The notes beneath the pieces are model-generated. The model did not search any database and was not told the origin of the DNA. It saw only the letters and a list, made by a program, of their open reading frames with translations. The position numbers were made by a program, and so were the translations under genes. A stretch of DNA of 64,000 nucleotides from Mytilus trossulus. Taxonomy: Eukaryota. Location of the stretch: the NCBI RefSeq assembly GCF_036588685.1, contig NC_086382.1:56482001-56546000 (forward strand). The letters are read 5' to 3'. Shown in pieces: positions 14,500 to 62,850 of this stretch (the stretch's first letter is position 1; the number at the start of each line of letters is the position of its first letter).

Positions 14500-14745
14500 G
14501 AAAAACTCATCATATATACCAGGATTACATTTTGTATTGACGCCAAAAGCGCATTTCTTCTAAAAAAGACTCACCAGTGACGCTCAAATCCCAAAAAGTT
14601 AAAGAGGCCAAATAAAGTACTAAGTTTTGCCAAACACAGCTAAGGTAATCTATTTCTGAGGTAGCTATAAGAAAAGCCTTAGTATTTCAAAAATTCAAAA
14701 GTTTTGAAAACAGTAAACTTATAAATATGACTGTATCAATGATAA
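14500..14745 (-). mobile_element. Partial retrozyme-like copy with a decayed hammerhead
   Basis: Minus strand 14540-14585 reads gagcgtca-ctggtga-gtc-ttttttagaa-gaaa-tgcgc-ttt-tggcgt; flanks match the 20438 copy (cctggtat..atgatgagttt; gattaccttagctg). Confidence 0.8.
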
Positions 14746-19904: not shown

Positions 19905-20700
19905 ATACCCGAGGGAGTAGCGTCCACCACTGTGTCGATGGCTGACAGTAATTGTCAGTGAGATTAACGCCAACCACTAGATTGATAGAGACGATTAATG
20001 ACTGAGGGAGTAATTTCCACCTCTGGATCAATGTCATTTTTAATTGAATGTTAATGTCACAGGATGTAGTAGTGTCCACCAATGGATCAAAATCATTGGT
20101 AATTGACGGTTAATGTCACAGGAAGTAATGTCCACCAATGTATCAAATTTATTAATAAAACATTGCTGGTTTCAATGACAGTAATGTCAGCCACCTAATC
20201 GATGTCATCAATGAATGGCGGCTGATGTCCGGGGGTGTAGCGTCTACCAATATATTGATGCCATTGATGTCTAACAGTTAATGGAGTTACGAAATCCACT
20301 CATCCAACGATTCCATTGATTGCGGATTGTTATATCCTAGGAAGTTATGTCATAAACGATGTCGTGATGCCTAGCAAATAATGCCCCATGAAGTTTCATC
20401 CATCACTAGATCTATGTTATTAATAACAAACGGAAAGGATTACCTTAGCTGTATTGGCGAAAATTTGAGGAATTTTGGTCCTCAATGCTCTGCAACTTCG
20501 TACTTTATTTGTCCTTTTTAACATTATTTTTTTCGAGCGTCACTGATGAGACTTTTGTAGACTAAACGCGCGTCTGTCGTCAATATGAAATTTCAATCCT
20601 GGTATCTATGATGAGTTTATTGATTGTCGATTGGGTTACGTCTTTAACTAGATTGATGCCATTGATGTCTGACCGGTACTACCCGAGGAAAAGATCCAAT
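19905..20700. repeat. Degenerate ~55-bp minisatellite interrupted by a retrozyme fragment
   Basis: Recurring gtccaccaatggatcaa..cattg..ttaatgtcacagga; attgatgccattgatgtct occurs both before (~20254) and after (~20652) the 20438-20621 insert. Confidence 0.65.
20438..20621 (+). mobile_element. 5'-truncated retrozyme-like copy with a mutated hammerhead
   Basis: 20537-20580: gcgtca-ctgatga-gac-ttttgta-gac-taaa-cgcgc-gtc-tgtcgt (GAAA changed to TAAA, stem II mismatch); upstream part matches 34238-34330. Confidence 0.85.
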
Positions 20701-27150: not shown

Positions 27151-27250
27151 CTGTGAAACAGAACCAACTGGACATTTTCCCACAGCTTCTCCTTACAAAA
27201 ACTACAAACCACAATAAGGCCTTTATAATGTATGTTTAGTTCACGCATCA

Positions 27251-27631
27251 TTGGCCTACAAATTGTATAAACAAAATTTTGAATTTGAGGAATATCTGAA
27301 TATTTTAAATGATAAAGATAGAATAACATATTGTAGATTTCGTACGGGTAACCATAAGTTACCCATCGAAACTGGTAGATGGAATAAGATTGAGCGAAAC
27401 CTTAGATATTGTAACTTATGTCATTGTAACGAGATTGGTGATGAATTTCATTACACTTTGCAGTGTAGTTCTTTGGCAAATTTTCGAGCACAATATTTGG
27501 ATACTTTTTTCTTGCACAGATGTAACATACTAAAATTTGAAAAACTATTTCAGTTAAAAATTAAAAATAAGTTGAAAAAGCTGTGCAAATTTATCAGGGT
27601 TATAACTTTTCAAGTGAGTCTTCCTGGTTAA
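27251..27631 (+). pseudogene. C-terminal Cys/His zinc-binding region of LINE ORF2 (fragment)
   Basis: FRTGNHKLPIETGRW...RYCNLCHCNEIGDEFHYTLQC is the motif found after the RT domain in invertebrate LINEs (RTEX/CR1-group type, recalled); no true ATG and no RT domain upstream. Confidence 0.85.
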
Positions 27632-34000: not shown

Positions 34001-34336
34001 TGCAGTATATATTGTTTATAGAATGGTATGTATACAAATGATAATTTCTTTCTGCATATGAATTACTGGGTCGATGCCACTGCTGGTGGACGTTTCGTCC
34101 CCGAGGGTATCACCAGCCCAGTAGTCAGCACTTCGGTGTTGACATGAATATCAATTATATGGTCATTTCTATAAATTTTCTGTTTACAAAACTTTTAATT
34201 TTTCGAAAAACTAAGGATTTTCTTACGCCCAGGAGTAGATTACCTTAGCCGTATTTGGCACAACTTTTATGAATTTTTGGGTCCTCAATGCTCTTCAACT
34301 TTGTATTTGTTTGGCATTTTAACTGTTTTGATCTGA

Positions 34337-34380
34337 GCGTCACTGATGAGTCTTATGTAGATTAAACGCGCGTCTGGCGT
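34337..34380 (+). ncRNA. Type I hammerhead ribozyme, core-mutated copy
   Basis: gcgtca-CTGATGA-gtc-ttatgta-gat-TAAA-cgcgc-GTC-tggcgt: G12 of GAAA replaced by T. Confidence 0.75.
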
Positions 34381-34693
34381 ATTAAATTATAATCCTGGTA
34401 CCTTTGATAACTATTAACACCACTGGGTCGATGCCACTGCTGGTGGATGTTTCGTCCCCGAGGGTATCACCAGCCCAGTAGTCAGCACTTCGGTGTTGAC
34501 ATGAATATCAATTATATGGTCATTTCTATAAATTTTCTGTTTACAAAACTTTTAATTTTTCGAAAAACTAAGGATTTTCTTACGCCCAGGAGTAGATTAC
34601 CTTAGCCGTATTTGGCACAACTTTTAGGAATTTTTGGGTCCTCAATGCTCTTCAACTTTGTATTTGTTTGGCATTTTAACTGTTTTGATCTGA

Positions 34694-34737
34694 GCGTCAC
34701 TGATGAGTCTTATGTAGACGAAACGCGCGTCTGGCGT
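34694..34737 (+). ncRNA. Intact minimal type I hammerhead ribozyme
   Basis: Stem I gcgtca/tggcgt; CTGATGA 34700-34706; stem II gtc/gac; GAAA 34720-34723; palindromic stem III ACGCGCGT; GTC triplet with predicted cleavage after 34731. Confidence 0.9.
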
Positions 34738-37700
34738 ATTAAATTATAATCCTGGTACCTTTGATAACTATTATGTTATTGTATATATAAAATACAAACA
34801 CGGGACCCGGTGATAGAGTAATGCAGTCACATTGACAGTTTTTAAGACGGTCCTCAAACATTTATGTATATCTATATAATTATATAGACAAAGGTAATTT
34901 TTGGAAAAATGATTAGAAATTTAAAAGCTATCAGATTATAAACAAATGACGACAATGCAACATGCGATACTGACTGAAACAACTGTATACGCAATAGTGC
35001 AAATTACCTTTTCTATCTTGAACGGTGAACATAATAAGGCTAGCTACCCTTTTCTTAATAGTGCAAACTTCCTTTCTTTAAAATCTTTACCCTATAAAAA
35101 GGACATTCATTGTCACTAGTTTTCAATTTCTTTTTATACATTTGATGTAGACAGGGCTAGTTCAGATCAATACATATTTCATATTACCTCTTTTAGTATT
35201 GGTCTATACATTTGTATTTCACGTTTGCAGTTCAACATAATAGAAAACCATTGAAATAACTCCACGGACAAATTTCAAAGTAATTTGAAAGAATTTATTT
35301 GAAAAGTTATTAAAAAACAACCATAAACAAATATTAAGATTTTAATCCAATTTACAGTTTCCTAAATAGTGCCCCTTGAGTACATTTCTTCTTAAGAAAT
35401 TTTCCACTTGCTTTCACCTTAGTCTTCTGTGTCAATAGAGCATTCTTATCAGGCGTGCAATATGGGCGACATTAAAAGATTTCTATTCAACACTGGATGA
35501 AAAGATAAAATAGCTGTAGCACACGTGCGAGCTAGGACTAGATGATAAAACCGGATTTAAAAGGTCTGCAATAATACACCAGGACATAAAACGCAGTAGA
35601 TTCGTACCTAGCTGGCTTATTAATTGTTTCATTATTTGTTCACTTAACAATAAAAAAGCAATTAATATTGATCTTTCATTGTGGTTGTCCGTGTGAAAAG
35701 AAATATGTAACAATTTCATAACTATTTTGAAAATGGTGTGTAAACAAGAAAACCTGTGGTTAGTGTTTATGTACTTCTAGATATAAACCCTAAGACAATG
35801 ATTGCCAAAAGAACAACAACATGTAGAAATATACCAATGACAAAAAGTTGTAAAATTAAACATCAACAAGTCGCCGTTCAAAAGGAAGACGATCACATGG
35901 TTACAAGATCCCGCCTTAACTGGGTCAGACAAATGAAGTATGAATCAAGGATATCAAGTCTGCAAGCTTTCCCTTAACACAAGACAGTGTAAACTAGCTA
36001 CCATCGAAAAGATGTCGTTTTCCCTCATCCTTACTGCAGTTTTCTTAGGGTGGTTCAGTGATATCGCCATAACAACAACATACTGTAGCATTAATAGAAT
36101 CAACTAAGATATGTGAACACCACAGGAAAAGGAACAGGATCTCTGCGGTAAAAGAACAGGGTAATAATACAGACAAAAAATATTAAAAAAATACCAAACG
36201 GCCAAGTTTTATTCAAAAAGGGGCAAGTCGATAAAACATAACCAAATCAAACGTTCGACTATATCAACATACTGAACAAATGGAAAACATATTGTCATAT
36301 ATCTGACTTTGTTCAAGAAGCTGCCGAGTTCAGCCTGGTTTAATAGCTAGCCAAACCTCCCACTTCTATGACATTCCGTTATATCGTGAAATATTTAGAT
36401 AAGCAAAACTGTGTGAGCAACAAAAACAGACTTAATCGGTAAAGTAACATTAATTGGAACCCAGCAGTCACAACTGTTAAGATATATCACAGACATACAC
36501 ACATACAATGAACTTAAAACAAATCAAACAAACATAATGATAAATTTGACAAATTATAGACTCCAACAAAAAGTGTGTTTTAGTTGATAGTACAGTAAAA
36601 ACAATTTCTATTACACTTTGATGATGGGCACACAAATAGTAAAATATAAATGCATGATCATACAAAATGTTACCACTGGCAACACTATTTATACTAATGC
36701 GACCGAATCGTTTCTCTGAAACCATCTGCAACGGAAACGCTTTAGTATGAGAAGGTTGTTCCAAAAACTCTCTGTATCATTCAAATTAGTTTTAAATTAA
36801 CGGTATACCAGATGGTTCTTAGTACAAACAAGTTATTTACCTAATCTGCTCCAATGAATATTTATAAACAATGTCAGAATACTGTCATTGTAGGAAAGGG
36901 CAGTGACCACATGGTGCACTTTTATTTGTGTTCGATGTTTTATTTTTTTGTTGTTCTGGTGTAGAGTATAGTAAAATATACACAATAAAGACATGTATTA
37001 CTGTAATGCAATAACGCATTGTTATTGTTATGTTTGTGACCGTGATTTTGCCGATCTCTCGTTGATTTATGAATTTTGATTCTCCCTATGGTATCTTCCC
37101 CTTTTACATATCCTAAACAAGTTTCATTCCTAAAAAAATGCTGTTGGTTATCTTCTTTTCATAGTTGAGTTTGGTTGACATCTTTTTTCATACTATCATA
37201 AAGACATGCAAATATAAATGATTGCTACTGGGTTAATTATAAGTTTGAAGCTAGGATTTATATAAATAATAGTACAGACATTCCAGGTCGATTTTTGAAC
37301 TACAAAAAGTACTACTGCAATGTTTAATAATTCACTAACTAAGGATATTCTCAAAAATGAATTCATATGCAGCTATCTTGCATGGATTCAAATAAAAACA
37401 ACTACTACCCATAAAAGGAGAAATTGTCAATGAAACAAAAGATCTACTACACACATCATATCTCAGTGGTTATACGGTAATCTAGAATTGACACCCATTG
37501 ATTATATAGAAAGCCACATTCGTAGTTTTGGCTATGCTCTACGTGACTTGATGGCTACGAAGCGAAACATAGCCAATACCCAACATTCTATACAGTGGGT
37601 AGCACCAGAGTGTTAATGACAACACTATTACGAATTTATCTAAAAGGATGCCATCCTACACTCTAATATCAACGGCTGTACTTTGAGTATTTTCTCTACA

Positions 37701-62490: not shown

Positions 62491-62850
62491 AGACGAATCG
62501 CGTACTTCCGTATCGAAATATAAACCTTGTACCGTTGATAATTATTTACGCCACTGGAACCCGAGCATATCACTAGCCCAGTAGTATCAATTCGGTGTTG
62601 ACATGAATATCAACTATATGGCCATATTTATAAATGTTTGCAAAAGTAAGAATTATTGAAAAACTAAGGATTACATTGGCCGTAGTTGGCACAACTTTTT
62701 TGAATTTTGGGTCTTCAGTGCTCTTCAACTTTGTACCTGTTTGATTTTTTAACTATTTTGATCTGACCGTCACTGATGAGTCTCATGTAGACATGTAGAC
62801 GAAACGCGCGTCTTGGGTTTCGAAATATAAGCCTGGTACCTTAACTATTA
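62491..62850 (+). mobile_element. Retrozyme-like copy, slightly more than one unit
   Basis: Starts with the 3' half of a decayed hammerhead (agacgaatcgcgt), crosses the unit junction (gataattatttacgccactgg), follows the 34422 unit with deletions and ends cctggtaccttaactatta. Confidence 0.88.
62767..62818 (+). ncRNA. Hammerhead motif with intact core, lengthened stem II and damaged stem I
   Basis: ccgtca-CTGATGA(62773-62779)-gtctcatgtagacatgtagac-GAAA(62801-62804)-cgcgc-GTC-ttgggt. Confidence 0.65.

What the first reader, a model, noticed from the sequence alone, without database searches (positions are those of the whole stretch)
34337..34737. Asymmetric dimer: palindromic stem III predicts cross-cleavage, with one dead core
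Seen: stem III is the self-complementary octamer ACGCGCGT, too short to be stable as a monomer hairpin. Two of the four differences between the units fall side by side in the unit-1 core (GAC-GAAA to GAT-TAAA). Established: such hammerheads can act as double hammerheads, and G12 is catalytically essential. Inference: in a dimer fold, the intact unit-2 core would cut the unit-1 site (after 34374), while the unit-2 site (after 34731) would stay uncut. The locus would then give one cut and no free monomer.
Basis: partly seen in the sequence, partly recalled or inferred. Interest (0 to 1): 0.7.

Follow-up and report, generated by a model that had tools for sequence, protein, structure and literature searches.

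The report
Mutated copy of mussel retrozyme repeat
This is one two-unit copy of a very abundant non-coding repeat, likely the mussel "retrozyme" already known to make small RNA circles, in which one of the two self-cutting RNA motifs carries a likely chance, disabling mutation of a kind seen in hundreds of other copies, so it is ordinary.

Summary
Observation confirmed: two 357-base units (34065-34773), each with a type I hammerhead; four differences, two of them turning the unit-1 C11.1-G12 CG into TT. The cross-cleavage geometry is right but textbook, and the palindromic octamer is Rfam's own Hammerhead_1 consensus. The asymmetry is not special. The intact 20-mer occurs 16,383 times in this genome, and 809 of 17,707 counted motifs have lost G12. 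Of 40 sampled G12T loci, 7 are the same dead-first/intact-second dimer and 3 the reverse. Three of the four differences sit in CpGs, and each is absent or rare in sister units: post-insertion decay. "One cut, no monomer" is not secure. A published single-repeat mussel clone self-cleaves (about 0.1/min), and the 5' product is predicted to bind only weakly, so 34731 would likely be cut too. The released unit, 34375-34731, would carry the intact core. No cleavage was measured, and this locus is not shown to be transcribed. The scan already filed another decayed dimer of this family in this genome (e1-9920380). Verdict: already known, low interest.

The parts
34065..34421 (+). Repeat unit 1 (357 nt) of the retrozyme insertion
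   Evidence: 153 matches in 39 scored of 3057 candidate places in the genome
34422..34773 (+). Repeat unit 2 (352 nt; ends at the family's fixed 3' end). Whole insertion is 709 nt = 1.99 turns
34337..34380 (+). Type I hammerhead 1 with damaged core (C11.1>U, G12>U)
   Evidence: Rfam RF00163 25.2 bits, E 0.0013
34694..34737 (+). Type I hammerhead 2, intact: stem I 6 bp (2 G.U), CUGAUGA, stem II 4 bp + 5-nt loop, GAAA, stem III 2 bp + GCGC loop, GUC site
   Evidence: Rfam RF00163 33.0 bits, E 3.3e-6; pairs listed
34362..34363 (+). CG>TT at the C11.1-G12 CpG; derived; not found in the sister units examined
   Evidence: sister units: C in 144 of 144, G in 143 of 144; 7 TT motifs in the genome
34366..34373 (+). 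Self-complementary octamer (stem III), unit 1
   Evidence: octamer duplex -13.3 kcal/mol
34723..34730 (+). Self-complementary octamer (stem III), unit 2; same letters as the Rfam Hammerhead_1 consensus
34374..34374 (+). C17 of unit 1; predicted cut after this base, needing an intact core from unit 2 or from another RNA
   Evidence: hammerhead numbering; inferred
34731..34731 (+). C17 of unit 2; predicted cut after this base, by monomer fold or in trans
   Evidence: inferred
34375..34731 (+). Predicted excised monomer/circle (357 nt) if both sites are cut; holds only the intact core
   Evidence: sequence; inferred
34732..34773 (+). 42-nt stretch between the cut site and the fixed 3' end; resembles the 30-40 bp Penelope-element tail
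   Evidence: 3' ends at unit positions 349-356 in 36 of 39 loci; loose ends at 34415-34416 in DNA runs; tail
34270..34270 (+). Derived G>T in unit 1, outside the ribozyme
   Evidence: G in 135 of 137 sister units
34448..34448 (+). Derived C>T at a CpG in unit 2, outside the ribozyme
   Evidence: C in 125 of 126 sister units

Best explanation
This is a two-turn copy of a 357-base hammerhead repeat with over 16,000 motifs in the genome, likely the known mussel non-LTR retrozyme, whose first core likely lost G12 by chance mutation at a CpG after insertion. Shown: repeat structure, hammerhead motifs, copy numbers, derived state of the four differences, frequency of dead cores, a fixed 3' end. From the literature: this class is transcribed, self-cleaves, is circularised (likely by an RtcB-type ligase) and is thought to be reverse-transcribed by Penelope-like elements. 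Inferred: if this locus is transcribed, single and double hammerhead folds both compete with inactive folds. The unit-2 core would cut 34374 in the cis dimer and 34731 as a monomer or in trans with another family RNA, slowly releasing a 357-nt unit that carries the intact core and leaves the dead core behind in the 5' fragment.
For: Counts at this CpG with fixed flanks: CG 16,383, TG 332 (20), CA 665 (24), CT 95 (19), AG 183 (36), TT 7 (13), AA 16 (25), TA 26 (39). G12 is lost in 809 of 17,707 (4.6%; G12C not counted). The G12A change is twice as common as the wobble-keeping C11.1U, so dead cores are not purged from genomic copies. The first 40 of the 95 G12T places: 21 solo, 12 first in array, 7 last; 7 dead-then-intact dimers, 3 intact-then-dead. 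In the 39 closest loci, 12 of 141 scorable hammerheads have a core hit, and 6 of 39 loci mix dead and intact cores. The four differences are absent or rare (at most 2 units) among the 126-144 sister units covering each site. RNA reads of a run labelled organism C cover the family mostly with the first mate on the minus strand (about 5:1 in most bins), and 548 reads cross the unit junction. Mussel family: about 5000 hammerheads, 350-390 bp repeats, single-repeat kobs about 0.1/min, dimer construct yields monomer. 5' product binding -4.7 kcal/mol.
Against: No cleavage assay. The published single-repeat clone may have cleaved as a trans dimer, and I could not see its sequence (supplement unreadable), so identity with that exact family is inferred. 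Dead-first outnumbered dead-last 12 to 7 (no test was run on this; too few to exclude a mild bias). No locus-specific RNA evidence: 1 read pair on the left flank in X21 and 0 of 42 exact reads with TT in X24, both from an organism label other than the best DNA holders. TT is 3.6 times the independence expectation (p 0.004), falling to p 0.08 after correcting by the TA excess.
Confidence: 0.85

Rival explanations
1. One reading: cleavage needs the cis dimer, so only 34374 is cut and no monomer is released.
For: Nested dimer geometry is valid; octamer duplex -13.3 vs hairpin +2.4 kcal/mol; cross-core about 3-4 kcal/mol better than monomer; double hammerheads are documented for short palindromic helix III.
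Against: Single-repeat mussel clone cleaves. 5' product binds weakly. A trans double hammerhead of two unit-2 motifs is favourable (-29.5 vs -18.4 kcal/mol for two free minimum-energy folds, isolated motifs at standard state), and family RNA is abundant in mussel tissue.
Confidence: 0.15
2. Monomer-only cleavage: each hammerhead acts alone, unit 1 is dead, only 34731 is cut, and the locus is a dead end (the reading the scan gave another dimer, e1-9920380).
For: Helix III of 2 bp + tetraloop is the ordinary invertebrate form and cleaves in single-repeat clones. Unit 1 is transcribed 357 nt before unit 2 and its own stem I can form first (its local minimum-energy fold keeps stem I).
Against: Folding gives the cross-core a lower energy than the monomer; axolotl 2-bp helix III motifs cleave much better as dimers.
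Confidence: 0.3
3. The two substitutions are an assembly error.
For: No reads tie TT to this locus; the change lengthens an A/T run; no raw reads of the source were available.
Against: TT occurs at 7 places in the assembly with different flanks and in contigs of 3 of 3 DNA runs from 2 studies. Double changes at this CpG follow the single-change frequencies.
Confidence: 0.05
4. A selected device: the host keeps one dead and one live core to make a single defined cut.
For: Dead-first was commoner than dead-last in the sample (12 vs 7).
Against: Young copy with private changes. One X1 contig runs along the left flank to 34065 and its remaining 34 letters do not lie on the element, which suggests a haplotype without the insertion (record 2). 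No gene context found: 0 of 74 ORFs passed a Pfam cut-off.
Confidence: 0.02

Closest known systems
Mytilus galloprovincialis non-LTR retrozymes (Cervera and de la Pena 2020, PMC7229834; parts 2-4 of 6 read, supplement unreadable)
   Same: Type I hammerhead in 350-390 bp, low-GC tandem repeats; thousands of copies; no ORF; their dimer construct is named Mg353, close to the 357-nt unit here.
   Different: Sequence identity to their clones (MN642551-76) could not be tested. At least 16,383 motifs here vs about 5000 in their assembly. This copy has a G12 change in one core.
Double hammerhead of avocado sunblotch viroid and newt satellite 2 (Forster et al. 1988; seen only as cited in PMC4209133, PMC6155905, PMC6765202 passages)
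   Same: Two tandem hammerheads pair through a palindromic helix III, so each core faces the other's site.
   Different: Newt-type helix III has 1 bp; here 2 bp + tetraloop. Recalled, not read: engineered one-dead-core dimers were already used around 1988-1991 to tell single from double hammerheads, and both modes were found. The 1991 papers were not held.
Rfam RF00163 Hammerhead_1
   Same: Full-length match, with the consensus GACGAAACGcgCGUC matched letter for letter by unit 2.
   Different: 33.0 and 25.2 bits, below the gathering score of 34, mainly from stem I letters.
Penelope-like element pLTR/tail and PLE-derived retrozymes (PMC11167929 and PMC8557442 passages; bioRxiv 10.64898/2026.07.22.740005 parts 1-2 of 5)
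   Same: Fixed 3' end about 40 nt past the hammerhead cut, ragged 5' ends, tandem units.
   Different: No RT or endonuclease ORF here; I did not look for a partner PLE in this genome.

Membership tests
Type I hammerhead ribozyme | Core CUGANGA / GAAA / UH with three stems, stem I open | tested here: met
   Unit 2: Rfam RF00163 positions 1-45 of 45, E 3.3e-6; pairs
Type I hammerhead ribozyme | G12 general base (unit 1) | tested here: not met
   34363 is T; role of G12 per PMC6155905 passage
Type I hammerhead ribozyme | Self-cleavage after C17 | not testable with these tools
   No pile-up of read starts or ends at the site in X21 (table 6); such libraries rarely show it
Non-LTR retrozyme | Tandem units of 150-450 bp, each with a type I hammerhead, GC under 50% | tested here: met
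   357-nt units; arrays of 1 to 24 turns in 39 loci; region GC 0.34
Non-LTR retrozyme | High dispersed copy number, no coding capacity | tested here: met
   16,383 intact motifs; only 64-67 aa stop-to-stop frames over the element
Non-LTR retrozyme | Family is transcribed in the ribozyme sense | tested here: met
   4498 reads laid from about 6% of X21, mostly first mate on minus; family-level, organism C; strand reading assumes a usual stranded library
Non-LTR retrozyme | Circular monomer RNA | tested here: inconclusive
   Junction reads (548 at 34421>34065) cannot tell circles from tandem arrays, since DNA runs show the same joint
Non-LTR retrozyme | Target-site duplication (optional in the family) | tested here: not met
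   Only a 3-nt ATT shared by left flank end and element end, by eye
'Active' retrozyme as defined by Li, Clavereau and Pollet 2026 | [quoted passage not shown] | tested here: not met
   Unit 1 core damaged; definition
Obligate double hammerhead | Palindromic helix III | tested here: met
   Octamer duplex -13.3 kcal/mol
Obligate double hammerhead | No cleavage as a single motif | not testable with these tools
   Published single-repeat mussel clone cleaves at about 0.1/min, which argues against; trans dimers not excluded there
Penelope-mobilised element | Fixed 3' end 30-40 bp tail; ragged 5' ends | tested here: met
   36 of 39 3' ends at unit positions 349-356, 39-46 nt past the cut; 5' ends spread over positions 1-350
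Penelope-mobilised element | Shared pLTR sequence with an autonomous PLE in the same genome | not tested
   No search made

The most novel reading that the evidence does not exclude
Cross-cleavage acts as a rescue: in dead-then-intact dimers the downstream core cuts both sites in turn and releases a wild-type circle, so arrays shed broken ribozymes from their progeny. The genome's hundreds of natural one-dead-core arrays would then let RNA-seq decide whether animal retrozymes cut as single or double hammerheads in vivo.
Probability: 0.3. Interest if true: 0.4.

Novelty: already known. Interest (0 to 1): 0.12.

Why it matters
As a locus it matters little: it is one mutated copy among more than 16,000. 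Its use is as a ready-made reagent. Whether invertebrate retrozymes cleave as single or double hammerheads is argued from constructs, and a dead-then-intact dimer separates the modes: a cut at 34374 needs a partner core, and a cut at 34731 needs the monomer fold or a trans partner.

Tried and rejected
Rfam gathering scan of the window: 0 hits; the E-value scan found both motifs. Idea that insertions start at the ribozyme cut: suggested by short BLAST pieces starting at unit position 307-311, rejected because most of those loci extend further 5'; only 2 of 39 start at 311. Idea that CG>TT is a distinct methyl-CpG tandem lesion (mCG>TT, PMC1976268 passages): possible but not shown; TT 7 vs 1.9 expected, p 0.08 after the 1.9-fold excess seen for TA, and AA p 0.36. 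Clustering of 5' ends near whole turns: set aside, because loci were picked for holding a full unit. Gene context: 74 of 109 ORFs of 62 aa or more scanned, none passed a Pfam cut-off; small exons are not excluded. Locus-linked read support for TT: not obtainable from 31-mer contigs. Scripts 32 (error after 14 loci) and 33 (time-out) were redone, 2 of 39 loci (L056, L065) gave no ungapped hammerhead and are missing from the 141. Among the 39 loci three pairs look like duplicates (L038/L042, L039/L040, L049/L064). Four older papers on single vs double hammerheads were not held. The scan's notes near this place were empty.

Full report
Observation. The window holds a direct repeat of period 357. 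A base-by-base comparison gives an insertion from 34065 to 34773 (709 nt, 1.99 turns) with four differences between the units: 34091/34448, 34270/34627, 34362/34719 and 34363/34720. Each unit ends in a type I hammerhead. Rfam Hammerhead_1 matches 34694-34737 at 33.0 bits and 34337-34380 at 25.2 bits, both just or well under the gathering score of 34. In unit 1, C11.1 and G12 read TT. C17 lies at 34374 and 34731. The Rfam consensus itself carries the same octamer in stem III, so the palindrome is a class trait, not a feature of this locus.

What it is. The exact 20-mer around the intact core occurs 16,383 times in the 1.30-Gb genome (control 0). A DNA search scored 39 of 3057 candidate places and found arrays of 1 to 24 turns at 95-100% identity. 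Contigs C1-C14 are 60-113 Mb and sum to about 1.19 Gb, and one run holding the stretch is labelled 'mollusc metagenome'. That Mytilus has 14 chromosomes is recalled. Cervera and de la Pena 2020 (PMC7229834; parts 2-4 of 6 and passages read; supplement unreadable) describe about 5000 type I hammerheads in 350-390 bp repeats in M. galloprovincialis, expressed as circles. I file the element there by size, anatomy and host, without a sequence alignment to their clones. The family is expressed: 4498 reads from about 6% of RNA run X21 lie on unit 1, mostly first mate on minus, which in usual stranded libraries means ribozyme-sense RNA. That run carries the label organism C, not that of the best DNA holders, so this is family-level evidence. 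In 36 of the 39 closest loci the 3' end falls at unit positions 349-356, about 41 nt past the cut, while 5' ends are ragged. Loose ends at 34415-34416 in three DNA runs agree. This resembles the 30-40 bp Penelope tail (passages of PMC11167929 and PMC8557442), and a 2026 preprint argues that animal retrozymes derive from Penelope-like elements (parts 1-2 of 5 read).

Is the dead core special? No. With the flanks held fixed, the C11.1-G12 dinucleotide reads CG 16,383, TG 332, CA 665, CT 95, AG 183, TT 7, AA 16 and TA 26 times. G12 is lost in 809 of these 17,707 (G12C and rarer doubles not counted). The G12A change is twice as common as C11.1U, which keeps a wobble pair, so genomic copies are not purged of dead cores. 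Of the first 40 of the 95 G12T places, 21 are solo, 12 first and 7 last in an array; 7 are dead-then-intact dimers like this one and 3 the reverse. In the 39 closest loci 12 of 141 scorable hammerheads have a core substitution, and 6 loci mix dead and intact cores. All four differences here are derived and absent or rare in sisters: sister units read C in 125 of 126, G in 135 of 137, C in 144 of 144 and G in 143 of 144. Three of the four hit CpG bases. Across those units minor letters are rarer in the core (9 of 1582) than elsewhere (624 of 46,016), and none of the 7 positions varying in over 10% of units is in the ribozyme. This fits selection on source lineages and neutral decay after insertion. 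TT exceeds independence 3.6-fold (p 0.004), but TA shows a 1.9-fold excess too, and after that correction p is 0.08. A single mCG>TT event (PMC1976268 passages) is possible, not shown.

Real or error? TT occurs at 7 places with different flanks. Contigs of X1, X3 and X4 cross 34362-34363 at 100% identity. They are 33-42 nt long and cannot be tied to this locus. In RNA run X24, 0 of 42 exact reads carry TT. One X1 contig follows the left flank to 34065 and then leaves the element, which suggests a haplotype without the insertion.

How it would cleave. In ViennaRNA the free 34300-34780 RNA prefers inactive folds. The active cross-core lies 5.6 kcal/mol above the free ensemble, the unit-2 monomer 8.4 and the full dimer 8.4 at 37 C; at 15 C the values are 7.5, 11.6 and 11.8. 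These models omit core and tertiary energies, so they give only a mild lean to cross-cleavage. Double hammerheads with short palindromic helix III are established (passages). But the same 2020 paper bp plus a tetraloop the invertebrate form and reports that a single cloned mussel repeat self-cleaves at about 0.1/min, by monomer fold or trans dimer. After a cut at 34374 the 5' piece binds the rest by about -4.7 kcal/mol and should leave. The remaining RNA holds a complete hammerhead, and abundant family RNA could also pair in trans. So 34731 would likely be cut as well. The piece between the sites, 34375-34731, contains only the intact core; the dead core stays in the 5' fragment. I put the outcomes, if transcribed, at roughly: both sites cut 0.5, only 34731 0.3, only 34374 0.15. 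None was measured, and transcription of this locus is not shown (1 read pair on the left flank; no Pfam-supported ORF among 74 of 109 scanned).

Known or new. Family, double-hammerhead geometry and the role of G12 are in print. That engineered one-dead-core dimers were used to separate single from double hammerheads around 1988-1991 is recalled; those papers were not held (two titles seen in reference lists). Six paper searches listed no study of natural one-dead-core retrozyme dimers, but the library lacks most subscription journals and I did not aim a search at that phrase alone. The scan has an unreviewed note on another decayed dimer of this family in this genome and one on Penelope-type ends in another genome. 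Verdict: already known; interest 0.12. The boldest reading left open is rescue by cross-cleavage (probability 0.3).

Noticed in passing
window 20438-20612 (+), 62560-62850 (+), 14509-14744 (-): Three older fragments of the same family in this window (81%, 76%, 69% identity). The 20543 core also has G12>T; the 62773 core has a duplicated stretch in stem-loop II.
   Followed up: partly
G000:C13:37448036-37451957 (L051): An 11-unit array in which 5 cores carry A6>G in the pattern dead/intact DoDoDooDooD: a higher-order repeat that spread a dead core by tandem expansion after insertion.
   Followed up: partly
genome-wide, CpG at window 34719-34720: Strand-partner changes are all about 2:1 in favour of A on the sense strand: CA 665 vs TG 332, AG 183 vs CT 95, AA 16 vs TT 7. 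Could be sequence context, the neighbouring A run or a reverse-transcription bias; unexplained.
   Followed up: no
window 34363, RNA run X21: G12 is kept in 1196 of 1242 reads with first mate on minus vs 431 of 472 on plus (96.3% vs 91.3%). It hints that sense RNA is enriched for intact cores, but reads are not independent and the run has another organism label.
   Followed up: partly
window 34773 and 39 related loci: Fixed 3' end about 41 nt past the ribozyme cut in 36 of 39 loci, like a Penelope tail; no partner element was sought.
   Followed up: partly
G000:C1 about 269295-290897: A long array of about 60 units at 355-base spacing among the first 100 listed matches.
   Followed up: no
window 27218-27631 (+): 137-aa open frame rich in Cys/His that by eye resembles the C-terminal end of a non-LTR retrotransposon ORF (recalled); no Pfam hit.
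   Followed up: partly
window 34064-34098 (+): The unit's 5' part folds into long stable hairpins (about 34420-34505 in unit 2) in every predicted structure; function not examined.
   Followed up: no
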